64,000 nucleotides of DNA from Deltaproteobacteria bacterium (GTDB taxonomy: Bacteria > Desulfobacterota > GWC2-55-46): the NCBI GenBank assembly GCA_016219075.1, contig JACRCJ010000286.1:27528-91527 (forward strand). The letters run 5' to 3'. The stretch's first letter is position 1, and every line of letters starts with the position of its first letter. The position numbers were made by a program, and so were the translations under genes. Below, piece after piece: positions 22,659 through 52,722 of the stretch. Under the pieces are notes generated by a model. That model searched no databases, had not been told where the DNA came from, and saw only the letters and a program-made list of their open reading frames with translations.

Positions 22659-23617
22659 ACGATAAGGTCATTTTAAGCGCCTCAATCGGCTTTATAGCGG
22701 GGCTTTTTGGGGCGCTCCTTATAAGGGGCTGCGGAAAGGCCCTGCTCGATATGCCGAACGGGAGGAGCTCCCATTCCGTGCCGACACCGAGGGGAGGCGG
22801 TATTGGGATCGTGATCGGGTTCGTCATAGTATCAGCGTTTATCGTAAACGACTTTACCGGGGCCGCGATAGGCGCGGGGATAGGGGTGCTGGGGGTTTTA
22901 GAGGACCGGTTCGGGCTCCCTATCGGACTACGGCTGGCCCTCCAGCTCATGGGCGCGCTCACGGCTGTTTTGATAGCAGGGGCCTCGGCGACGACGGCCC
23001 TGTTCTGGGCCGTCGTTACAGCCGGGACTGCGAACTTCTACAACTTCCTCGACGGCATCGACGGGATAGCCGGGCTTACAGGGGCCGTAAGCTTTTCCCT
23101 GCTCGCCTTTTTTTCTTTCTTTATCGCGGGGAACGCCTCCATCGGCGCGCTCTCGACAGCGCTTGCCGCCGGGTGCATCGGGTTCCTGCCGCTCAACTTC
23201 CCCAGGGCGAAGGTCTTCATGGGGGATGCCGGGAGCATCTTTCTCGGGTTCGAGTTCGCCCTGTCAACGCACAGCCTCGCGGACTCTCTTAAGAGCCTGC
23301 TCTGCCTCGGGATGTTCCTGTGCGTCTTTTACGCCGACGCGCTCGTTACGTTATTTTACAGGTGGAGGAACGGCGAAGACCTGGCCTCTCCCCACAGGGG
23401 GCACCTCTACCAGTATCTGTGCAACGGGCTCGGGTATTCGCACAGGACGGTGTCGGAGTTATACGCCGCGGTCCAGCTTCTCTTCGGGGTGCTCGCGATA
23501 TTGGCGTACTACAGGTCGGTTGTCTGGCAGGCCGCGGTAATAATCGCATTCTCGGCGTCGTTCATAATAGCCTACAGGTCGATAAAGGGTCTGGACCCGC
23601 TCGGGCAGATATACTGA
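22656..23617 (+). CDS. polyprenyl-phosphate N-acetylhexosamine-1-phosphate transferase (WecA/MraY family GT4) - pathway-initiating enzyme
   Basis: LDMPNGRSSHSVPTPRGGGIGIV is the WecA/MraY signature. NFLDGIDG (D-D-x-x-D-like). Multi-TM. Start at the ATG at 22656 (ATGA overlap with upstream stop). The track ORF start at 22529 is an upstream extension. Confidence 0.75.
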
Positions 23618-23811: not shown

Positions 23812-25854
23812 ATGAAAAAAATAATTTCAAGGCTCCTCCATCCGACATACATCAAGAGGACCGCGTTCTTCTTCATCTTCGACATCGTTATAATAGCGTT
23901 TTCACTCTACTTCTCCTTCCTCGTCCGGTTCGATTTCGACCTCACGGACGAATACAGGAGGCTCGCCGTGGACGCGATACCGATATTCATACTGGTGAAA
24001 TTGAGCGTCTTTTCGGCCTTCAGGCTTAGCAGGATAACATGGAAGTACGTGGGTCTCCGCGACCTTATCAACATCAGCGCCGCGCTCCTCGCCTCCGAGG
24101 CGGTATTGGCCCTCATAATACTCTTCCCGCCCGCCGGATGGGCCTACTTCTCGTCGTTCATCCCGGATATAAAGGCGCTCGGGTTCCCGCGGAGCATCTT
24201 TATTATCGATGCCGCCAATTCGCTCCTGCTCCTTTTGACGCTCAGGGTCTCCAAGAGGCTTTACGTCGAGTTCCTCCACGGGAACGGGAGCAACAGGAAC
24301 GGCCTGAAGACCGTCATCATAGGCGCGGGGAACGCCGGGGAGATGATCCTCCGGGACATGTCGCGCCATAACGGCTCCGGGTTCAGCCCGGCTGGCTTTC
24401 TCGACGACGACAGGACGAAGATCGGCACGTACATACACGGGGTAAAGGTCCTGGGCGCCACGGATATGCTGAGGGACGTCGTCCTCAAGAAGGGGATAAA
24501 GGCGATGATCATAGCGATACCGTCACTGAACCAGAAGACCCTGAGGAACATCTATGATTCCGCGCGCGACACCGGCGTGGAGACTATCAAGATAGTTCCC
24601 CGGATATATGACTACGACAGGCCCGAGGTGAACCTGAAGAGCCTCGAAACCATCAGCATAGAGGACATCCTCGGCAGGAGGGTCGTAGAGGTAGACTACG
24701 GGGAGATAAGGAAGTTCCTCAAGGACAAAGTCGTGCTCGTCACCGGGGCAGGCGGCTCCATAGGCTCCGAGATAGCCGTGCAGGCGCTCGGCTGCGGGCC
24801 CTCACAGCTCATCCTCTTCGACATAGACGAAACCGAGCTGCATAACATGGAGATAAGGCTCAAGAGGACGTTCCCGCACCTGTTCAGGCAGGGTGGGAAC
24901 GGAAAAGACCGTCCGAAGAAGGCAAATCACGAGAGGGTATCCTTTGTCGTTGGCGACGTCAGGGACATGGACAGGGTCGATTCGGTGCTGTCGGAATACA
25001 GGCCGCAGGTCGTCTTCCACGCAGCCGCCTACAAGCACGTGCCCATGATGGAGCATAACCCTGACGAGGCCGTCAAGGTGAATGTCTTCGGCGCGCACAG
25101 GATGGCGTCGGCATCGGTCAGGCACGGGGTCGGGAAGTTCATCATGATATCGACCGACAAGGCCGTGAGGCCGACGAGCGTAATGGGGGCCACGAAGAGG
25201 ATAGCCGAGTACGTCTGCAAGGCATACAACGGAGAAGGGGGGACCGAGTTCGTCTCGGTCAGGTTCGGCAACGTGCTCGGGAGCCGCGGCAGCGTCCTGC
25301 CGCTGTTCCTGGAGCAGTTGAAGGCCGGCGGCCCCATAACGGTCACGCACAGGGACATGAAAAGGTACTTCATGACAATACCCGAGGCGGTATCCCTCGT
25401 GCTGCAGGCCGGCGCGATAGGCCGCGGCGGGGACGTCCTCGTCCTCGACATGGGGGACCCCGTAAGGATAGTCGAGCTGGCCGAGGAGCTGATACGGATC
25501 CACGGCCTCGAGCCCCATAAGGACATAGACATCGAGTTCGTGCATATGAGGCCCGGCGAAAAGCTTTTTGAAGAAATACTGACGGCAGAGGAAGGGACGA
25601 CCGCGAGCAGGCATAAGCAGATTTTCATAGCTCGGGAATCCCGCAGGCACTCGAGGCTCGAGATAGAGAAGATACTGAAAGAGTTCGAGTCCCGGCTGGA
25701 CAACGGGCGCGGCGGGGTGAGGGAGCTGCTTAAGAAGCATGTGGTCCATTACGAGGCTGATGGCAGGGAAGCAACCGGGGAAACCGGCGCGCGGTCCATC
25801 CACGCGCCGGAACCGAATAGAGAGGAGGCAGCTGGATATGCAGGCGGACAATGA
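23812..25854 (+). CDS. membrane-anchored NDP-sugar 4,6-dehydratase/epimerase (WbpM/CapD/PglF family)
   Basis: Four N-terminal TM helices, then IIGAGNAGEM and VTGAGGSIGSE Rossmann motifs, YKHVPMME, and an extended SDR fold. 680 aa as in WbpM/PglF. Strong AAGAAGAGAGAGAG RBS. Confidence 0.8.
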   Translation: MKKIISRLLHPTYIKRTAFFFIFDIVIIAFSLYFSFLVRFDFDLTDEYRRLAVDAIPIFILVKLSVFSAFRLSRITWKYVGLRDLINISAALLASEAVLALIILFPPAGWAYFSSFIPDIKALGFPRSIFIIDAANSLLLLLTLRVSKRLYVEFLHGNGSNRNGLKTVIIGAGNAGEMILRDMSRHNGSGFSPAGFLDDDRTKIGTYIHGVKVLGATDMLRDVVLKKGIKAMIIAIPSLNQKTLRNIYDSARDTGVETIKIVPRIYDYDRPEVNLKSLETISIEDILGRRVVEVDYGEIRKFLKDKVVLVTGAGGSIGSEIAVQALGCGPSQLILFDIDETELHNMEIRLKRTFPHLFRQGGNGKDRPKKANHERVSFVVGDVRDMDRVDSVLSEYRPQVVFHAAAYKHVPMMEHNPDEAVKVNVFGAHRMASASVRHGVGKFIMISTDKAVRPTSVMGATKRIAEYVCKAYNGEGGTEFVSVRFGNVLGSRGSVLPLFLEQLKAGGPITVTHRDMKRYFMTIPEAVSLVLQAGAIGRGGDVLVLDMGDPVRIVELAEELIRIHGLEPHKDIDIEFVHMRPGEKLFEEILTAEEGTTASRHKQIFIARESRRHSRLEIEKILKEFESRLDNGRGGVRELLKKHVVHYEADGREATGETGARSIHAPEPNREEAAGYAGGQ

Positions 25855-26851
25855 GATAAATCTCCTCGACGCATTGCGCGTAGTATGGAGGAGGAGGGCC
25901 TTCATAGTGTTATTTACTTTTGCCTGCGCGCTCGGAGCGGCGATAATCACGCTTTTCATGACTGACCTTTACAGGGCCTCGGCGATACTCACGCCGGTAA
26001 ACGGCAAGGAAAAGATCGGAGGGGAGCTGTCGTTGATAGCCCAGCAGATAGGGGGGCTGTCGGGCATAACACTGCCCTCGTCCGGGTCGTCGTCCGAGAT
26101 AATAAGCCTGCTTAACTCCAACATACTCAAAGAGAAGGTAATCAAGGACTACGACCTCCTGCCCGTGCTTTTTCCAGAACAGTGGGACAGGGAGAAGAAG
26201 GCATGGAAGACCCCGGATAAATCTTTTTTCAGGCTCCCGGCGATATCCGGCCTCCTTACAGGCTTATTCAGACCGGCTGAAAGTCCGGCCAATGCGCAGG
26301 GCCCGACTGTCTGGGACGGGATAAGAAGGCTCGGCGAGATGACAAAAGTGAGTGCGAGCGCCAAGGACAATACGATAACTCTTATGATCGAGTTCCACGA
26401 CCCGGAGCTCGCCGCGAAACTGACGGAGCGCTTTTTGACGGCCCTGACAATGCACATGAGCGGCGAGGCCAAGAGGGTCGCCGAGGTGAACAGGAGATAC
26501 CTCGTCGAGCAGTTAGGCAATTCGACCGACCCGATAATCAGGCAGAAGATATACAATCTCATAGCGCAGCAGGTGGAGGTGTTCATGATGTCCGAGGTAA
26601 AAGAGAACTTCGCCTTCAAGGTCATAGACCCGCCGAGGGCCGCTGACAGGAGGGTATGGCCGAGGAGGTCCTCCATCGTGGAGCTCGCCTTTGCCGCTGC
26701 TTTCCTCGCGGCGTCATTCGGCGCTTTCGCAATCGATTACGTCCAAAATCGTCTGAGGAAGGATGGAGGGCGCTGTTGCGTGGAGGCGTCTGAAGGCCGC
26801 GAAAGCAATGAATTGAAGTATACCGGGAGGGATGCGGATGAACACACATAG
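25838..26851 (+). CDS. Wzz-like polysaccharide chain-length determinant (PCP, no kinase domain)
   Basis: N-terminal TM (AFIVLFTFACALGAAIITLF) after LLDALRVVWRRR and a C-terminal TM. AGAGGAGG RBS upstream of the ATG at 25838. The track ORF from 25739 is an extension overlapping wbpM. Confidence 0.65.
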   Translation: MQADNEINLLDALRVVWRRRAFIVLFTFACALGAAIITLFMTDLYRASAILTPVNGKEKIGGELSLIAQQIGGLSGITLPSSGSSSEIISLLNSNILKEKVIKDYDLLPVLFPEQWDREKKAWKTPDKSFFRLPAISGLLTGLFRPAESPANAQGPTVWDGIRRLGEMTKVSASAKDNTITLMIEFHDPELAAKLTERFLTALTMHMSGEAKRVAEVNRRYLVEQLGNSTDPIIRQKIYNLIAQQVEVFMMSEVKENFAFKVIDPPRAADRRVWPRRSSIVELAFAAAFLAASFGAFAIDYVQNRLRKDGGRCCVEASEGRESNELKYTGRDADEHT

Positions 26852-26957
26852 CGAGCGCATCTCCCGCTGCTTGCGGCGGGGTTCAGCGAGCGAATCGAAA
26901 TCGAAATTTCCTTATGTGTCGAAGATTCCCCGAAGAAAAGCTGCGGAGAGATTCAAC
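26840..26957 (+). repeat. ~118-nt intergenic repeat element, copy 1 (contains CCCCGCTG-CTTG-CGGCGGGG hairpin)
   Basis: Direct match (~88% identity by eye) to 51785-51898: GAACAC.CA.AGCGAGCGCAT.YCCCGCTG.TTGCGGCGGGGTT.AGCGAGCGAATCGAA...GTGTCGAAGATTCCCCG...GCTGCGG.GAGATTCAA. Confidence 0.8.
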
Positions 26958-34027: not shown

Positions 34028-35497
34028 ATGGGCTATCTTAAATCCCGTTTCACTTTATCCATAATAATCTTTCTGCTCGTCTTGGCGGCGTCCGGATATT
34101 CGTTCATGAAAAACCGCCAGTTGGGGCACCTCGGGGGCATGACCGATGAGTGGTTCGACCTCGGGATCAACATATCCGTATTCGGCGAGTATTCGATCGG
34201 CGGCGTCGACCCGGTCGTATTCAGACCTCCGGGATACCCGTTTTTCGTGGCCGGGATAGCAGACGTCTTCGCCGGACGGCACGACCTGAGGGTGATAGAC
34301 ACCGACGCGAAGTGGGCGGAGTGGAGGGACTTTTCAATAAAGGCCCTGAACTCGCTCTATCTCTCGCAGTGCGTGCTCCTGGCCCTCTCGTCCGTGGCGC
34401 TCTTTCTGTGGGCATCGAGGTACTTCGGCAGGGGAGCGGCATTTTCCGGGGCGCTCCTTTTCGGGGCTAACCCGTATTCAATCGTGCTGACCGGCCTTCT
34501 CCATTACGATATCCTCCATATCTTCCTTATAGTGGTATCCACGTTTCTCCTTACCCTGTTCCTTGAAAACGATAAGAGGCCCGGGGGCAAGATGTTCCTC
34601 GCAGGCGCGGCCTGGGGCATAGCTACGCTCGTGCGCCCGGTCACGCTTACGCTGCCGGTCTTTATCCTCGCGATGCTGTTCATAAAATCAGGCTCGTTAA
34701 GGCGCGCCGCTTACATGACATCCGCTCTCGTCCTTGGGATGGCGCTGGTGGTCCTCCCGTACACGGCCAGAAACTACTCGCTGACCGGGAGGGTCATACC
34801 CGTGAACGCCCAGAGCTGGACCGCGCTGTGGGGCTCGACGGTTACGAAATTTTCGATAAACCCGAACCACTACAACTGGTACAGGGTCTACCCCGACCCG
34901 TACGAGAAGATATTCCAAAGGGCGACGGGCGAGGGGTATACATACGAGGGGCTCATAAGGAATAACATCAAGGTGGAGGACGAATTCAAAAAAAGCGCCA
35001 TCGAGAACCTTAAGAAAAGCCCCGGTACCTATGTCGTCAACTGCCTCACGTCTTTCTTTACACTCAATATCCACATAAACTCGGTCTTCATAAAGGTCTT
35101 CCAGTTCATCCAAAGCCCCGATAACGGGATAGAAAAGGCCTGGTTTGTGCCCGGCGCCGCCCAGGACTTCTATCCGTCTACGGCCTCAAATGCGTTTTCT
35201 TTCCTTGTATACGCGCTTACGGGCTTAAGCCTGTTAGGTCTTTATCTCTCCCTGAAAAAAAAGGACGGCTTCTTCCTTGTGCCGGGGGCGGTCTACCTGG
35301 CCCTGACGGTTTCTCACTCGCTTACTTACTTTGACCTCATGTATTACTATATAAAGATGCCTTTCCTGTTCCTTTTCGCCTTTTACGCGGTCAACGCTCT
35401 CGGGGGATACAGGCTTAAAGGTGTCCCTATCCCGGCCCTCCTGATAATTACTCTACTGGTCTATACCTTCGCCCTCGATATAGCGGTCTTCTATTAA
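34028..35497 (+). CDS. GT-C fold glycosyltransferase, PMT/ArnT (GT39/GT83)-like integral membrane protein
   Basis: ~12 TM helices. RPPGYPFFVAGIADVF loop motif typical of PMT_2/ArnT-like transferases. Confidence 0.55.
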   Translation: MGYLKSRFTLSIIIFLLVLAASGYSFMKNRQLGHLGGMTDEWFDLGINISVFGEYSIGGVDPVVFRPPGYPFFVAGIADVFAGRHDLRVIDTDAKWAEWRDFSIKALNSLYLSQCVLLALSSVALFLWASRYFGRGAAFSGALLFGANPYSIVLTGLLHYDILHIFLIVVSTFLLTLFLENDKRPGGKMFLAGAAWGIATLVRPVTLTLPVFILAMLFIKSGSLRRAAYMTSALVLGMALVVLPYTARNYSLTGRVIPVNAQSWTALWGSTVTKFSINPNHYNWYRVYPDPYEKIFQRATGEGYTYEGLIRNNIKVEDEFKKSAIENLKKSPGTYVVNCLTSFFTLNIHINSVFIKVFQFIQSPDNGIEKAWFVPGAAQDFYPSTASNAFSFLVYALTGLSLLGLYLSLKKKDGFFLVPGAVYLALTVSHSLTYFDLMYYYIKMPFLFLFAFYAVNALGGYRLKGVPIPALLIITLLVYTFALDIAVFY

Positions 35498-35754
35498 CAG
35501 GCCGCTGAAAAAGTCCCTGAACAAATTCCGAGCAGGCTTACGGTTACGCGACACAGGGAGCCTCCTTTTCAGCCTTCCTCCTTTTTCTTCCTGCGTTTCT
35601 TGATGTCGCATAATGGATATTATGTCAAATTGCATATATTTAAGACTGCGTATAAAGGAAATACTGAAATGCTTTGTTTTGTATTGCTTTTCTCCCCTGC
35701 CGATACAGGACGCTGTCGGGGTCGCGTGAGGAAATGTTATGCTGGCTGGCTGTT

Positions 35755-45371: not shown

Positions 45372-45483
45372 GGTGAATATGCATGGCTATCGCTTCCCAC
45401 GCGGTGATTGCGCGGGGAAGCCGCCGGATAAAATGTGAAGCCGCCTTTCATCCCGGCTCCCCCCTTTCCGCTGGAGAACGAGC

Positions 45484-50421: not shown

Positions 50422-51774
50422 TTACGCCTTTAATCTCTCTGCAACCATCCCGCGTAGAGAATTGGGGAACGCATGGGTTATGCTTACGTCGATCAAACAG
50501 CCGGCCTCGGTCCGTTCTCCTTCGGGGGCCGGGAAATTGACTACCCTCCCGCAGGAGGTCCTCCCCGAAAGCTCTTCCACGTCCGTCTTGCTTGCGCCCT
50601 CCACGACCACCTCGATGGTGGAGCCTTCAAGCCTCCTGTTCCTCTCAAGGGATATCTCCCTTTGCGCCGCCATCAATATCCGCAGCCTTTCGGACTTCAC
50701 CTCGAAAGGGACCTGCTCCTTGAAGGACGCGGCCTTTGTGCCGGGACGCGGCGAGTACATGAATGAGAAGATACTGTCGAACCTCACCCTGTCCAGAAGG
50801 GCCATCGTATCGTCGAAATCGGCCCCGGTCTCTCCGGGAAAACCGACGATCATGTCGGTCGTTATCGCCATGCCGGGGTACAAGGACCTCAAAAGCGATA
50901 CCCTGGAGAAGTACTCATCCACGGTGTAGCCCCTGCCCATCTTCCTTAATACGCCGTCCGAGCCCGACTGGACCGGCAGGTGTATGTGCCTGCAGAGCTT
51001 CGGCTCGTCCCTGAAAAGGTATATCAGCTCTTCAGAGATGTCCTTGGGATGGGAAGTTATGAACTTTATCCTCTCTATCCCCTCCACCCCGGCAACCATC
51101 CTCAAAAGGCAGGGGAATGATACGTCCCCGCCGTTGTTCCCGTATGAGTTGACGTTCTGCCCGAGCAGGGTGACTTCCTTGACGCCCTCGTCAGAAAGCC
51201 TCTTTACCTCTTCGACTACCTCGGCGCTGCCCCTGCTCACCTCCCTGCCCCTCGTGTAAGGCACTATGCAGTAGGCGCAGAAGTTGTCGCACCCCCTCAT
51301 TATGCTCACGAAGGCCCTGTGCTTCGTAGAAGGGAGGGTAAAACCGTATTCGTCCGCGCCAATCTCCGCGCTTTGCTCTACGGCTACGGGCCTTTTTTTC
51401 AGGGAGGCCTCGTCGAGCAGGTCCTTCAGCCTGTGTATGTTATGCGGGCCGAAGACTATGTCCAGGTAGGGCGCCCTCTTCAAGAGCTTTGCGCCCTGCT
51501 GCTGGGCAACGCACCCGGATACGCCTATTATAAGCCCCGGGTTCCAGCTCTTGAGTTCTTTAAACCTGCCGAGCGCGGAGTAGACCTTCTGCTCGGCCTT
51601 GTCCCTGATGCTACAGGTGTTTATTATGATGAGGTCGGCCTTGCCGGGCTCGTAGGTGCGCGAGTACCGTATGTCCTTCAGGAACCCGAGTATCCTGTCG
51701 GAGTCGTTCTCGTTCATCTGGCAGCCGAAGGTCTCGAGGAAGACCTTCTTATCTCCGCTTAAAGCCTCTTGCAT
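50422..51774 (-). CDS. miaB: tRNA (N6-isopentenyl adenosine(37)-C2)-methylthiotransferase MiaB
   Basis: MTTase N-domain (KVFLETFGCQMNENDSDRI), radical SAM CxxxCxxC (GCDNFCAYC), C-terminal TRAM domain. 450 aa. Confidence 0.85.
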   Translation of the reverse strand: MQEALSGDKKVFLETFGCQMNENDSDRILGFLKDIRYSRTYEPGKADLIIINTCSIRDKAEQKVYSALGRFKELKSWNPGLIIGVSGCVAQQQGAKLLKRAPYLDIVFGPHNIHRLKDLLDEASLKKRPVAVEQSAEIGADEYGFTLPSTKHRAFVSIMRGCDNFCAYCIVPYTRGREVSRGSAEVVEEVKRLSDEGVKEVTLLGQNVNSYGNNGGDVSFPCLLRMVAGVEGIERIKFITSHPKDISEELIYLFRDEPKLCRHIHLPVQSGSDGVLRKMGRGYTVDEYFSRVSLLRSLYPGMAITTDMIVGFPGETGADFDDTMALLDRVRFDSIFSFMYSPRPGTKAASFKEQVPFEVKSERLRILMAAQREISLERNRRLEGSTIEVVVEGASKTDVEELSGRTSCGRVVNFPAPEGERTEAGCLIDVSITHAFPNSLRGMVAERLKA

Positions 51775-51784
51775 GACTCACCTT

Positions 51785-51898
51785 GAACACGCACAGCGAG
51801 CGCATTCCCCGCTGTTTGCGGCGGGGTTTAGCGAGCGAATCGAATTTTTTTCCTTTTGTGTCGAAGATTCCCCGCAGCTTGCTGCGGGGAGATTCAAA
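51785..51898 (+). repeat. ~114-nt intergenic repeat element, copy 2 (two near-perfect hairpins)
   Basis: Same sequence as 26840-26957. The second hairpin CCCCGCAGC-TTGC-TGCGGGG is perfect here and degenerate in copy 1. Lies in the miaB 5' region (antisense to miaB). Confidence 0.8.
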
Positions 51899-52032
51899 GC
51901 AACCAGTACATTTTAAGGTCAATGAACGCTTTTAGTCAAGAGAGTTCTGGAGGTATGGGGGCTTAAGACTTTGTTTTTAAAAGTATTTTTAACAGGCTGC
52001 TGAAAAAGCCCTGTTCTACCGTGTCGTCTCTG

Positions 52033-52722
52033 TTAAACCTGCCCCCTGGCCTTTGCCAGGAGCTCGTCTTTTTCAGGCTTGACTGTCCACGGGTTACGGA
52101 TGCCGAACTTCTTCTCCATGGTCTTTGCCGCTGAGAGAGCCTCTTTTTTCGTGGAATAGAAGCCGACCCTCACCCTGTGCCATTTGACGCCTTTTTTCGT
52201 AAAGTCCGTGATATACGCGTCGTAACCGGCCTTTTTGAGCTTTCCGGCGAGTGCCTGCGCCGAACGCATGTCAGGGAAAGACGCGAGGTTCAATGCCCAG
52301 GGCTTTGACAGGGTCTTTTTCTCTATTTTCTTTGCATCTGCCTTGGCCGGGGCCTTTTTCGCCGCCGCCTTTTCGCCGGACGGAGCCTTCTGGGCGGTCT
52401 TTTTCTCCTTGTTGTCCTGAAGGTCTATCTTTATCGCAGGCTTTGCGGGGGCCTCGGCAACCACCTTTTTCTCCGGCTTTTTCTGCTCAAGGACAACGGG
52501 GGCCGGGGCCGGCCTCGACGCCGGCGTTGCCGCCTCTTGCGCGGGCTGTATCTCCGTCGCGGCTGAGCCCTCGGCAGGGGCTGCCGCGTCCTTGAGCTCT
52601 ATCTTAACCCTCTTCGATATTACCTCCGAATCCCCTTTATCTTTTTTCTTCCCGCACGCCGGGACAAGCGCGAGCAGTAATATGAGCGTAAGGCAATGGA
52701 ACTTCCTCGGCATAACCCTCAA
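52033..52722 (-). CDS. SPOR-domain lipoprotein (peptidoglycan-binding), Ala/Pro/Lys-rich linker
   Basis: Lipobox VPAC. Low-complexity APAKPA/KKAA linker. C-terminal SPOR domain (WALNLASFPDMRSAQALAGKLKKAGYDAYI...WHRVRVGFYSTKKEA). ATGA overlap with the pilQ stop. Confidence 0.65.
   Translation of the reverse strand: MRVMPRKFHCLTLILLLALVPACGKKKDKGDSEVISKRVKIELKDAAAPAEGSAATEIQPAQEAATPASRPAPAPVVLEQKKPEKKVVAEAPAKPAIKIDLQDNKEKKTAQKAPSGEKAAAKKAPAKADAKKIEKKTLSKPWALNLASFPDMRSAQALAGKLKKAGYDAYITDFTKKGVKWHRVRVGFYSTKKEALSAAKTMEKKFGIRNPWTVKPEKDELLAKARGQV

What the first reader, a model, noticed from the sequence alone, without database searches (positions are those of the whole stretch)
26840..26957. A ~118-nt hairpin-containing element present twice (26840-26957 and 51785-51898), once between wzz and wza and once in the miaB 5' region
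The two copies align over their full length at roughly 88% identity (GAACACRCAYAGCGAGCGCAT.YCCCGCTG.TTGCGGCGGGGTTYAGCGAGCGAATCGAA...GTGTCGAAGATTCCCCG...GCTGCGGRGAGATTCAA). Both are on the + strand, although the flanking genes have opposite polarity. Each contains an 8-bp GC-rich stem-loop (CCCCGCTG/CGGCGGGG). Copy 2 has a second perfect 9-bp stem (CCCCGCAGC/GCTGCGGGG), which is decayed in copy 1. The track ORF for wza starts inside copy 1, which is almost certainly a mis-call. Candidates are a small structured RNA, a REP/MITE-like repeat, or a shared regulatory leader. Its presence exactly in the gap before the exporter gene is suggestive of regulation.
Basis: seen in the sequence. Interest (0 to 1): 0.6.

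Follow-up and report, generated by a model that had tools for sequence, protein, structure and literature searches.

The report
Miniature hairpin-ended transposon, two copies
The two look-alike ~114-base stretches are copies of a tiny gene-less mobile DNA element of the single-strand "peel-and-paste" (IS200/IS605) type, which occurs dozens of times in related groundwater bacteria; it is an ordinary kind of thing, although one copy sits in frame inside the very start of the polysaccharide-exporter gene.

Summary
Window 26839-26956 and 51784-51897 (+ strand) are two copies of one sharply bounded repeat.

It is not a private duplication or a shared leader. An exact core pattern finds at least 38 copies in one groundwater MAG (JACRCL01), on both strands. 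Its left-end pattern gives more than 120 metagenome stretches. Full copies also lie on Ca. Manganitrophus (Nitrospirota) plasmids. No Rfam family matches.

The anatomy follows the IS608 rules for IS200/IS605 ends:
- There are no terminal inverted repeats and no target duplication.
- Two near-identical subterminal hairpins show compensatory changes.
- A conserved TGAA lies exactly 19 nt 5' of hairpin 1.
- The element ends in TCAA.
- The 4-nt "guides" 5' of each hairpin (CATT, GATT) pair with TGAA and TCAA by the published rule.

Two related genomes (about 90% and 80% identical) have the empty wzz/wza site, ...ATGAA|TAGG.... The 114-nt insert therefore lies 3' of a pre-existing TGAA.

Copy 1 entered codon 2 of wza in frame, adding 38 codons, and it supplies a new wzz stop codon. 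Copy 2 lies antisense in the miaB 5' UTR.

No cognate Y1 transposase was found in the 1.27 Mb examined. Verdict: a new family of a known kind (a non-autonomous IS200/IS605-type element, or PATE).

The parts
26839..26842 (+). TGAA target motif (left cleavage site, or TAM) of copy 1. It predates the insertion, is not part of the inserted DNA, and overlaps the wza start (A-TGAA).
   Evidence: Empty orthologous sites: L051 GCGGATGAA|TAGGATC and L050 GCGAATGAG|TAGGACT.
26843..26956 (+). Element copy 1. It is 114 nt, of subfamily B, and degenerate: guide CATT has become CATC and hairpin 2 is decayed. It is probably immobile.
   Evidence: The ssDNA fold is no better than shuffles.
26862..26881 (+). 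Hairpin 1 of copy 1 (TCCCGCTG-CTTG-CGGCGGGG).
26928..26948 (+). Decayed hairpin 2 of copy 1 (CCCCGAAG-AAAAG-CTGCGGAG).
26838..26840 (+). Ancestral wza start codon. The ORF runs from here in frame through the element, adding 38 residues after Met-Asn.
   Evidence: Protein alignment with L050 and L051 Wza N-termini; DNA alignment.
26849..26851 (+). TAG stop codon now used by wzz, supplied by the element. Wzz ends ...DEHT* instead of ...(D/N)E*.
51784..51787 (+). TGAA target motif (TAM) of copy 2.
   Evidence: by analogy.
51788..51897 (+). Element copy 2. It is 110 nt, of subfamily A, intact, and differs at 2 of 114 positions (98.2% identical) from the most common copies in JACRCL01.
   Evidence: the ssDNA fold has z = -3.6.
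51803..51806 (+). Left guide CATT, at element positions +16 to +19, the same positions as in IS608. It pairs with TGAA (C:G, A:T, T:A).
   Evidence: Direct reading against the rule in PMC5934647 and PMC3201880.
51807..51826 (+). Hairpin 1 (the left imperfect palindrome, IPL): CCCCGCTG-TTTG-CGGCGGGG.
51866..51869 (+). Right guide GATT. It pairs with TCAA (G:C, A:T, T:A).
   Evidence: read.
51870..51889 (+). Hairpin 2 (the right imperfect palindrome, IPR): CCCCGCAG-CTTG-CTGCGGGG, followed by AG as in the IS608 right end.
51894..51897 (+). TCAA right cleavage motif (TEM), the last four bases of the element.
   Evidence: compared.
51910..51939 (-). miaB promoter-like site, TTGACT-N18-TAAAAT. It is conserved in relatives with and without the element. 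The element begins about 12 nt downstream of the -10 hexamer, so it lies in the miaB 5' UTR in antisense orientation.
51777..51783 (-). miaB Shine-Dalgarno sequence AGGTGAG, left intact immediately next to the element's left boundary.

Best explanation
The two stretches are copies of a gene-less, non-autonomous transposable element of the IS200/IS605 type. Such elements are called palindrome-associated transposable elements (PATEs), a kind of MITE.

Inferred mechanism. A Y1 (HUH) TnpA transposase encoded elsewhere binds the two subterminal hairpins on the single-stranded top strand. It cleaves 3' of TGAA at the left and 3' of TCAA at the right. Each cleavage site is recognised by base pairing with the 4-nt guide just 5' of the corresponding hairpin (CATT and GATT). 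The 110-114-nt top strand is excised as a circle. It is then pasted 3' of another single-stranded TGAA, with no duplication or loss of target DNA.

What is shown:
- The family is multi-copy and sharply bounded.
- It has no terminal inverted repeats and no target-site duplication.
- TGAA is present at empty sites before insertion.
- The hairpins are maintained by compensatory changes.
- The guide and cleavage sequences are complementary, and the left-end spacing equals that of IS608.

What is inferred: the transposase itself and the single-strand chemistry.

Consequences in the window:
- Copy 1 landed on the TGAA inside the overlapping wzz stop and wza start (ATGAATAG). It survived because it is 114 nt, is in an open frame for wza, and brings a TAG that ends wzz two codons later.
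- Copy 2 landed between the miaB promoter and its ribosome-binding site. It now adds about 110 nt of antisense hairpin-rich leader.
For: 1. Dispersed family. An exact core pattern gave 42 loci, of which 33 were from one MAG, JACRCL01. That MAG holds at least 38 full or near-full copies on both strands, each with unrelated flanks. A related MAG, JACRNN01, has 2 copies. Full copies at about 80% identity occur on three Ca. Manganitrophus plasmid records.

2. Ends. Every copy starts TGAACA and ends (A/C)TTCAA. There is no target duplication of 3 nt or more in 37 copies, and no terminal inverted repeat beyond TTGAA/TTCAA.

3. True empty sites. GCA_040960095.1 (L050) is 90% identical to the window in nucleotide sequence, and Logan contig L051 is a second relative. 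In both, wzz and wza overlap as ...ATGA(A/G)TAGG.... The window has ...ATGAA[114 nt]CAGG....

4. Paralogous sites. Two sites inside a second repeat family keep their length only if TGAA is target DNA rather than inserted DNA.

5. Further differences between these relatives. L048 has a nested 82-nt copy where the window is empty. At the miaB site L048 has a one-hairpin remnant of about 48 nt.

6. IS608 rules read from the papers. The left cleavage site lies 19 nt 5' of the hairpin foot and is not part of the IS. The guide occupies +16 to +19. Guide base 1 pairs with cleavage base 2, and guide base 2 with cleavage base 1. Two bases 3' of the right hairpin (A, G) form base triplets.

7. The element fits these rules. 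TGAA is followed by 19 nt and then hairpin 1. CATT sits at +16 to +19 and gives C:G and A:T. At the right end GATT and TCAA give G:C and A:T. The single difference between TGAA and TCAA (G versus C) is matched by the single difference between the guides (C versus G). AG follows hairpin 2.

8. Hairpins. 92.7% of cells are paired. Each hairpin has one covarying pair (UA 10/UG 8/AU 3/GC 1 and AU 17/GC 8/GU 1). The covariation score exceeds all 500 shuffles and all slid controls.

9. Orientation. [quoted passage not shown] This evidence is weak.
Against: - No Y1 transposase gene was found. I searched about 1.27 Mb (the window plus 171 loci) by tblastn with IS200 and IS608 TnpA sequences written from memory, and by an HUH...Y motif scan. 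A separate tblastn of 149 kb of Ca. Manganitrophus plasmid DNA also found none.
- No longer element bounded by the same ends was found.
- Guide position 3 is T at both ends, whereas IS608 has A there. The paper says an A in the guide is inserted into the protein.
- The right hairpin lies 8 nt from the element end, against 10 nt in IS608.
- Copies in opposite orientation lie within 1-4 kb of each other (L007, L010, L038), so any replication-strand bias is not strict.
- The third guide-cleavage pair (base 4 with base 4) rests on my recollection of Barabas et al. 2008, not on text I read here.
Confidence: 0.8

Rival explanations
1. It is a REP/BIME/REPIN-type extragenic palindrome family, spread and maintained by a domesticated RAYT (a REP-associated tyrosine transposase, also a Y1 HUH enzyme).
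For: The elements are short GC-rich palindromes in intergenic DNA with high copy number. The enzyme superfamily would be the same as in the best explanation. One RAYT-like gene was seen in a metagenome locus that also holds a copy (L147).
Against: That RAYT is flanked by its own, unrelated GTAGGGTGGGCA...TGCCCACCCTAC REPs and lies 3.4 kb from the copy. Our hairpins have no GTAG-type head. The two hairpins are in direct, not inverted, order, so the element is not a REPIN. The element has distinct left and right ends with IS608-type guide and cleavage sequences. It inserts as one unit 3' of TGAA.
Confidence: 0.08
2. It is a classical cut-and-paste MITE derived from a DDE-transposase insertion sequence.
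For: The size (about 114 nt), copy number and intergenic location are typical of MITEs.
Against: There are no terminal inverted repeats: the ends are TGAACACGCA... and ...GGAGATTCAA. No target-site duplication of 3 nt or more occurs in 37 copies. The real empty sites show no duplicated bases beyond an ambiguous AA that is part of TGAA/TCAA.
Confidence: 0.03
3. It is a functional RNA element (a small RNA gene, a riboswitch-like leader or a transcription terminator) that the host has recruited upstream of wza and miaB.
For: It has two stable hairpins with compensatory changes. Both window copies lie within transcribed regions. The most conserved block is the unpaired AGCGAGCGAAT in the centre.
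Against: No Rfam match, even at E <= 10. No terminator-like T tract. The element is in opposite sense to the two neighbouring genes. Close relatives with the same genes lack it. Copies neighbour unrelated genes in either orientation. Hairpin covariation is equally expected for DNA hairpins that a transposase recognises.
Confidence: 0.04
4. It is an IS91-like rolling-circle (Y2 HUH) derived element. Such elements also lack terminal inverted repeats and target duplications and insert next to a tetranucleotide (GAAC/CAAG, from my own memory of the IS91 literature).
For: The left boundary reads TGAAC, which contains GAAC. There are no terminal inverted repeats or target duplications.
Against: The empty sites read ATGAATAGG and ATGAGTAGG. 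GAAC is therefore not present before insertion, and the C belongs to the insert. The IS608-type guide-cleavage pairing at both ends has no counterpart in IS91.
Confidence: 0.02

Closest known systems
IS608 of Helicobacter pylori (IS200/IS605 family): its left and right ends
   Same: - Subterminal hairpins of about 20 nt of the form CCCC...GGGG at both ends, and no terminal inverted repeats or target duplication.
- A left cleavage/target tetranucleotide outside the element, 19 nt from the hairpin foot, with the guide at +16 to +19.
- A right cleavage site of TCAA.
- The same guide-cleavage pairing (guide base 1 with cleavage base 2, guide base 2 with cleavage base 1).
- AG directly 3' of the right hairpin.
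Sources: searches compared.
   Different: - The target is TGAA, not TTAC.
- The guides are CATT and GATT, not AAAG and GAAT, with T rather than A at guide position 3.
- 8 nt rather than 10 nt follow the right hairpin.
- The hairpins are perfect or carry a G.T pair, without the extrahelical T of IS608.
- There is no tnpA or tnpB: the whole element is 110-114 nt.
Palindrome-associated transposable elements (PATEs): gene-less IS200/IS605 derivatives described in Haloquadratum walsbyi (PMC3119063) and Geobacillus stearothermophilus (PMC10055086)
   Same: A minimal left end plus right end without genes, in many copies, presumed to be mobilised in trans by a TnpA encoded elsewhere.
   Different: In those genomes the autonomous relatives with the same ends were identified; here none was found. 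This family lives in uncultured 'Deltaproteobacteria' MAGs, Ca. Manganitrophus plasmids and many metagenomes. It is modular, with forms of 51, 80, 114, 122 and 146 nt. Whether it carries an omega-RNA, as many PATEs are said to, is unknown.
REP / REPIN elements with RAYT transposases
   Same: Short GC-rich extragenic palindromes in high copy number, with a Y1 HUH enzyme acting on DNA hairpins.
   Different: REPs have a GTAG-type head and REPINs are inverted doublets. They lack distinct left and right ends with guide-cleavage pairing. They are not known to insert as a unit 3' of a fixed tetranucleotide. See the membership test.
Rickettsia palindromic elements (RPEs) (from my own knowledge, not checked here)
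   Same: A short palindromic mobile repeat found inserted in frame in a protein-coding gene, which extends the protein.
   Different: The family here shows no enrichment of open frames over shuffled sequences. The wza case looks like a single tolerated insertion, not a property of the family.

Membership tests
IS200/IS605-type non-autonomous element (PATE) | No terminal inverted repeats. | tested here: met
   The ends are TGAACACGCA... and ...GGAGATTCAA. Only TTGAA/TTCAA are complementary.
IS200/IS605-type non-autonomous element (PATE) | Insertion 3' of a fixed tetranucleotide that stays in the left flank, with no gain or loss of target DNA. | tested here: met
   Orthologous empty sites L050 and L051 read ...ATGA(A/G)|TAGG.... 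The window has ...ATGAA[114 nt]CAGG.... Two paralogous sites keep their length only under this model. TGAA is present in 41 of 42 copies retrieved with a pattern that does not include it. No target duplication of 3 nt or more was found.
IS200/IS605-type non-autonomous element (PATE) | Similar subterminal hairpins at both ends on one strand. | tested here: met
   Hairpins CCCCGCWG-N4-CWGCGGGG lie at positions 24-43 and 87-106. 92.7% of cells are paired, and each hairpin has one compensatory pair. ssDNA folds have z = -3.6, -2.7 and -5.4 for intact copies.
IS200/IS605-type non-autonomous element (PATE) | Cleavage sites recognised by a 4-nt guide 5' of each hairpin foot (guide base 1 with cleavage base 2, guide base 2 with cleavage base 1). 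| tested here: met
   The rule is taken from PMC5934647 and PMC3201880. Left end: CATT with TGAA gives C:G and A:T. Right end: GATT with TCAA gives G:C and A:T. The G/C difference between the two cleavage sites is mirrored in the guides. This test was made on sequence only, not biochemically.
IS200/IS605-type non-autonomous element (PATE) | Asymmetric geometry: the left cleavage site is distant from the hairpin (19 nt in IS608), and the right cleavage site lies close, 3' of its hairpin (10 nt). | tested here: met
   The distances here are 19 nt at the left end and 8 nt at the right end (compared).
IS200/IS605-type non-autonomous element (PATE) | A cognate Y1 (HUH) TnpA in the same genome, ideally within an element that has the same ends. 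| tested here: inconclusive
   None was found in about 1.27 Mb of window and loci by tblastn with remembered TnpA sequences and by a motif scan. No long element with these ends was found. Only about a tenth of any one genome was available.
IS200/IS605-type non-autonomous element (PATE) | [quoted passage not shown] | tested here: inconclusive
   The top strand lies on the locally G-rich strand in 29 of 42 copies. Local skew is confounded with gene strand, and opposite orientations occur within a few kb of each other.
REP/REPIN with RAYT | Palindromes of 20-40 nt with a conserved GTAG-type head, often arranged as inverted doublets (REPINs). | tested here: not met
   There is no GTAG head. The two hairpins are in direct order, with loop TT in both.
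REP/REPIN with RAYT | A RAYT gene flanked by the same palindromes. | tested here: not met
   The only RAYT-like gene seen (in L147) is flanked by different REPs. The test is limited by the small fraction of each genome available.
Classical DDE-type MITE | Terminal inverted repeats and target-site duplications. | tested here: not met
Any described RNA family (Rfam 15) | A covariance-model match at the gathering score. | tested here: not met
   Only a tRNA was found in the window. The best hits on the two copies are chance-level, with E = 0.4-5 and scores far below gathering.

The most novel reading that the evidence does not exclude
The family may be more than a passive hitch-hiker. Three observations point that way:
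- Its most invariant part is the unpaired central block AGCGAGCGAAT, not the transposition signals.
- No cognate tnpA was seen near about 170 copies.
- Near-identical copies (98%) occur in genomes whose MiaB proteins are at most about 76% identical.

On this reading the element would carry a functional RNA. That RNA could be a minimal omega-RNA-like guide read out of the right end for a TnpB or IscB nuclease acting in trans, or another small RNA. Alternatively, the element could be moved by a still undescribed HUH enzyme.
Probability: 0.1. Interest if true: 0.6.

Novelty: new member of a known kind. Interest (0 to 1): 0.3.

Why it matters
For annotation. These 110-120-nt elements explain odd ORF starts and stops and long "intergenic" gaps in this lineage:
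- Here the Wza N-terminus gains 38 residues.
- The Wzz C-terminus gains 2 residues.
- miaB has a hairpin-rich leader.
The elements should be masked or annotated as mobile elements.

For mobile-element biology. The family is a clean natural replicate of the IS608 guide-cleavage code with a different target (TGAA). The one-base difference between the left and right cleavage sites is compensated in the guides. That supports the generality of the DNA-guided target recognition rule. It also gives a predicted TAM (TGAA) for any TnpB or TnpA partner.

Its presence in both "Deltaproteobacteria" MAGs and Nitrospirota plasmids suggests horizontal spread.

None of this is surprising to a specialist. Gene-less IS200/IS605 derivatives are well known.

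Tried and rejected
- Rfam scans, at gathering scores on the whole window and at E <= 10 on both copies, found nothing relevant.
- I looked for a transposase between three inverted pairs of copies 1.1-1.25 kb apart (L007, L038, L010). They flank ordinary genes such as a methyltransferase-like gene and gpsA.
It has unrelated REPs of its own.
- An HUH...Y motif scan gave 0 hits.
- A search for long elements (left end with a distant right end) found none; the apparent cases were neighbouring short copies.
- A viral-contig scan with the left-end pattern gave 0 matches.
- I read the annotation of one 37-kb Ca. Manganitrophus plasmid and 100 kb of a second. There is no IS200/IS605 transposase, only an IS3.
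- The idea that the family is selected to be open-reading-frame compatible, like Rickettsia palindromic elements, is rejected. The number of open frames is no higher than in dinucleotide shuffles (P = 0.22, 0.56 and 1.0).
- A replication-strand bias from local GC skew (29:13) is suggestive only.
- A possible third, very degenerate copy at 45374-45449 is not significant (E = 0.14).
- Nine non-JACRCL/JACRNN loci from the genome scan (Verrucomicrobia, Acidobacteriota, Leucobacter and others). Those that reappeared in later searches matched only the 15-22-nt core; I treat all nine as chance matches.
Full report
**1. The observation**

The two stretches exist as described. Window 26839-26956 and 51784-51897, both on the + strand, align from TGAACAC to GATTCAA, and the flanks are unrelated. 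BLAST gives 83.9% identity over 118 gapped columns. The first 61 nt are 90% identical without gaps. A 33-nt core pattern occurs exactly twice in the window and never in 100 dinucleotide-preserving shuffles.

Hairpin 1 is present in both copies. Hairpin 2 is perfect in copy 2 and decayed in copy 1.

Pfam confirms the neighbouring genes:
- A Wzz-domain ORF (25739-26851, +) and a Poly_export/SLBB exporter ORF (to 30179, +) surround copy 1.
- A SPOR-domain gene (52033-52722, -) and miaB (50422-51774, -) surround copy 2.

**2. It is a dispersed repeat family, not a private duplication**

Rfam has nothing for it.

*Species-representative genomes.* I scanned them with the exact core GGGTTNAGCGAGCGAATCGA and got 42 loci. 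Thirty-two were from one groundwater MAG, JACRCL01 ('Deltaproteobacteria bacterium NC_groundwater_1645'), and one was from JACRNN01. BLAST and alignment of these loci give 40 further full or near-full copies on both strands. All start at TGAACA and end at TTCAA, and each has different flanks. The nine loci from other phyla share at most the short core and are treated as chance matches.

*Subfamilies.* Two are visible:
- A is 114 nt including TGAA. About 17 copies are nearly identical, and window copy 2 differs from them at 2 positions.
- B is 118 nt. Window copy 1 belongs here.

The copies there are modular. Forms of 114, 122 and 146 nt have two hairpins. Forms of 80 nt lack hairpin 1, and forms of 51 nt have a single hairpin. 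The short forms are explicable by recombination between the internal direct repeats.

*Plasmids.* Full-length copies at about 80% identity lie on three plasmid records of Ca. Manganitrophus (Nitrospirota), one per record and unannotated.

**3. Anatomy**

Read on the + strand, the element consists of the following parts in order:
- TGAA.
- 19 nt, CAC(G/A)CA(C/T)AGCGAGCGCATT.
- Hairpin 1, CCCCGCWG-N4-CWGCGGGG.
- TTTAGCGAGCGAATCGAAAT..., a variable T-rich segment, then ...TGTGTCGAAGATT.
- Hairpin 2, with nearly the same sequence as hairpin 1 and in direct order.
- AGATTCAA.

There are no terminal inverted repeats. Among 37 copies with complete flanks there is no target duplication of 3 nt or more. 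The only flank preference is a pyrimidine at -1 (T in 19 of 37).

On 27 distinct copies, 92.7% of hairpin cells are paired. Each hairpin has one position with compensatory changes: UA 10/UG 8/AU 3/GC 1 in hairpin 1, and AU 17/GC 8/GU 1 in hairpin 2. The covariation score is above all 500 shuffles and all slid controls. The copies are related to one another, so this is supportive rather than conclusive.

As single-stranded DNA, the intact copies fold into the two hairpins better than shuffles (z = -2.7 to -5.4). Window copy 1 does not (z = -1.1).

**4. Empty sites**

The window's own MiaB is in NCBI as MBI5469381.1, on a 105-kb MAG contig. A close relative, GCA_040960095.1, is 90-91% identical in nucleotide sequence and fully syntenic over 28 kb.

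*The wzz/wza site.* In that relative (L050) and in a Logan contig (L051, Wzz 80% identical), wzz and wza overlap by 8 nt:
- L051 reads GCGGATGAATAGGATC.
- L050 reads GCGAATGAGTAGGACT.
- The window reads GCGGATGAA[CACACATAGCG...GAGAGATTCAA]CAGGGTT.

The insert is therefore 114 nt (26843-26956). It lies 3' of a TGAA that was already there, and no bases were duplicated or lost.

*Two paralogous comparisons* inside a second repeat family say the same:
- GCAGCCTGAA|TAAATTCC (L016) against GCAGCCTGAA[...]TAAATTCC (L008).
- GCATCTGGAGCTTTTT (the consensus of that second family) against GCATCTTGAA[...]CTTTTT (L010, L014, L048).

*The family has been active since these two genomes split:*
- L048 has an 82-nt copy between the BFN-domain gene and the next gene, where the window has a 14-nt spacer.
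- The wza insertion is specific to the window lineage.
- At the miaB site L048 carries only a one-hairpin remnant of about 48 nt.
- A more distant relative (L043, MiaB 76% identical) has an empty miaB spacer.

**5. Comparison with the IS608 rules**

From the papers read here (PMC3201880 and PMC5934647), IS608 has these properties:
- It is cleaved 3' of TTAC, which lies 19 nt 5' of the foot of the left hairpin and is not part of the IS.
- It is also cleaved 3' of TCAA, 10 nt 3' of the right hairpin.
- It inserts 3' of TTAC with no gain or loss of DNA.
- The cleavage sites are read by 4-nt guides just 5' of each hairpin: AAAG at +16 to +19, and GAAT.
- The documented pairs are A+16:T-3 and A+17:T-4 on the left, and G-35:C-3 and A-34:T-4 on the right. 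In short, guide base 1 pairs with cleavage base 2, and guide base 2 with cleavage base 1.
- The two bases 3' of the right hairpin (A-10, G-9) form base triplets.

In the present element:
- TGAA lies exactly 19 nt from hairpin 1.
- The four bases at +16 to +19 are CATT, which gives C:G and A:T with TGAA.
- The four bases before hairpin 2 are GATT, which gives G:C and A:T with TCAA.
- Guide base 4 (T) can pair with cleavage base 4 (A) at both ends. This third pair is the IS608 C:G and A:T position as I remember it from Barabas et al. 2008, which I did not read here.
- The bases after hairpin 2 are AG.

The only difference between the two cleavage motifs (G versus C) is matched by the only difference between the two guides (C versus G). 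By chance, four specified Watson-Crick pairs would occur about once in 256 trials.

The reverse orientation fails this test, because the other flank has no conserved motif.

The differences from IS608 are T instead of A at guide position 3, 8 nt instead of 10 nt after the right hairpin, and the target itself.

Window copy 1 has lost guide base 4 (CATC) and hairpin 2, so it is probably a fossil. Copy 2 has every signal intact.

**6. What is missing**

The transposase is missing. In about 1.27 Mb (the window plus 171 loci), the following searches found no IS200-like TnpA:
- A scan for the HUH...Y motif.

A separate tblastn of 149 kb of Ca. Manganitrophus plasmid DNA also found none.

No longer element with these ends turned up. 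The one RAYT-like gene found has its own different REPs.

Only about 10% of any one genome could be examined. Gene-less copies far outnumber autonomous ones in documented cases (PMC10055086). This is therefore a gap rather than a contradiction, but it keeps my confidence near 0.8.

[quoted passage not shown] It is confounded with gene strand.

**7. Consequences in the window**

*Copy 1.* TGAA here is part of ATGAATAG, the overlapping wza start and wzz stop.
- After insertion the wza Shine-Dalgarno sequence and ATG (26838) are unchanged.
- The 114-nt insert is in frame and free of stops. The ORF now reads MN-THSERISRCLRRGSASESKSKFPYVSKIPRRKAAERFN-RVFRVLMCLFLIHLLAG..., where relatives read MNR(I/T)FR(V/I)L....
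- Wzz now ends ...DEHT*, using a TAG inside the element, instead of ...(D/N)E*.
- Whether the 38 extra residues (net charge about +8), which sit ahead of the signal peptide, are translated is not known. A downstream start (ATG 26977) may be used instead.
- The family as a whole is not enriched in open frames. This looks like one insertion that happened to be tolerated.

*Copy 2.* The miaB promoter-like site TTGACT-N18-TAAAAT (51939-51910, - strand) is conserved in relatives with and without the element. The element lies between it and the intact AGGTGAG ribosome-binding site. The miaB leader therefore carries the reverse complement of the element, with its two strong hairpins. I can show no regulatory role. 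The close relative has reduced the element at this site to a 48-nt remnant.

**8. An unexplained point**

Copy 2 is of type A, and 98% identical to the JACRCL01 copies. The remnant at the same miaB site in L048 is B-like (CACACATAG). Either the same TGAA was hit independently in the two lineages, or one copy was converted by another.

The 98% identity between genomes whose MiaB proteins are at most about 76% identical to the window's, together with the Nitrospirota plasmid copies, points to horizontal spread.

**9. Verdict**

The finding is a real repeat. It is best explained as a new family of non-autonomous IS200/IS605-type elements (PATEs). It is not a regulatory RNA. It is useful for annotation and as a natural test of the guide-cleavage code, but it is not a new kind of system.

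Noticed in passing
window 51993-52008 (-) and 35498-35513 (-); many fetched loci (e.g. L006 4041-4162, L003 3407-3528): There is a second, more abundant repeat family: MITE-like units of about 120 nt with termini CAGGCTGCTSAAAAAG ... CTTTTTSAGCAGCCTG (46 terminus matches in the fetched DNA). The window holds only solo termini, one of them 95 nt from copy 2, just after the stop of the SPOR-domain gene. The studied element is several times nested in, or abutting, this family (L010 3154, L014 6917, L048 12026, L008 843, L010 7004).
   Followed up: partly
window 22696-22727, 34435-34466, 62938-62969: A third short repeat (AGCGGGGCTTTTTGGGGCGCTCCTTATAAGGG-like, 69-75% identical between copies) was reported by the repeat finder. 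I did not examine it.
   Followed up: no
window 45374-45449 (+): This may be a very degenerate relic of the same element (TGAATATGCATGGCTATCGCTT followed by a hairpin), upstream of the GH57 gene. The nhmmer E-value is 0.14, which is not significant. The stretch is conserved in the relative L048.
   Followed up: partly
L048 9952-10000 and window 51784-51897: At the same miaB-upstream TGAA, the window has an intact A-type copy. The 91%-identical relative has a B-like one-hairpin remnant of about 48 nt. This suggests either repeated use of one target site or conversion between copies.
   Followed up: partly
L147 10972-11463 (-): This metagenome contig holds a RAYT-like gene (37% identical to E. 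coli YafM as I remember that sequence, E = 6e-26). It is flanked by its own inverted GTAGGGTGGGCA...TGCCCACCCTAC REPs, which are unrelated to the element studied here.
   Followed up: partly
L172 17603-17723 (CP114557.1) and CP114554.1 27747-27867: In the Ca. Manganitrophus plasmid copies, the direct repeat that flanks hairpin 1 (AGCGAGCG in the window family) is replaced on both sides by ACGCGCG. The repeat is kept although its sequence has changed, which hints that the pair has a function.
   Followed up: no
L038 4026-4139 with gyrA; L006 2438-2440; L030 4866-4868: In JACRCL01 the gyrA ORF also runs into a B-type copy and ends ...VEHT* at the element's TAG. In two other loci the TGA of the TGAA target appears to be the stop codon of the upstream longest ORF (crude ORF calls). 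TGAA motifs at gene starts (ATGAA) and ends (TGA-A) may explain why copies hug gene boundaries.
   Followed up: partly
window 1-64000: GC skew is positive over 1-32 kb and negative over 32-64 kb. The change coincides with the switch of genes from the + strand to the - strand. I could not tell whether this reflects replication or only the coding strand.
   Followed up: no
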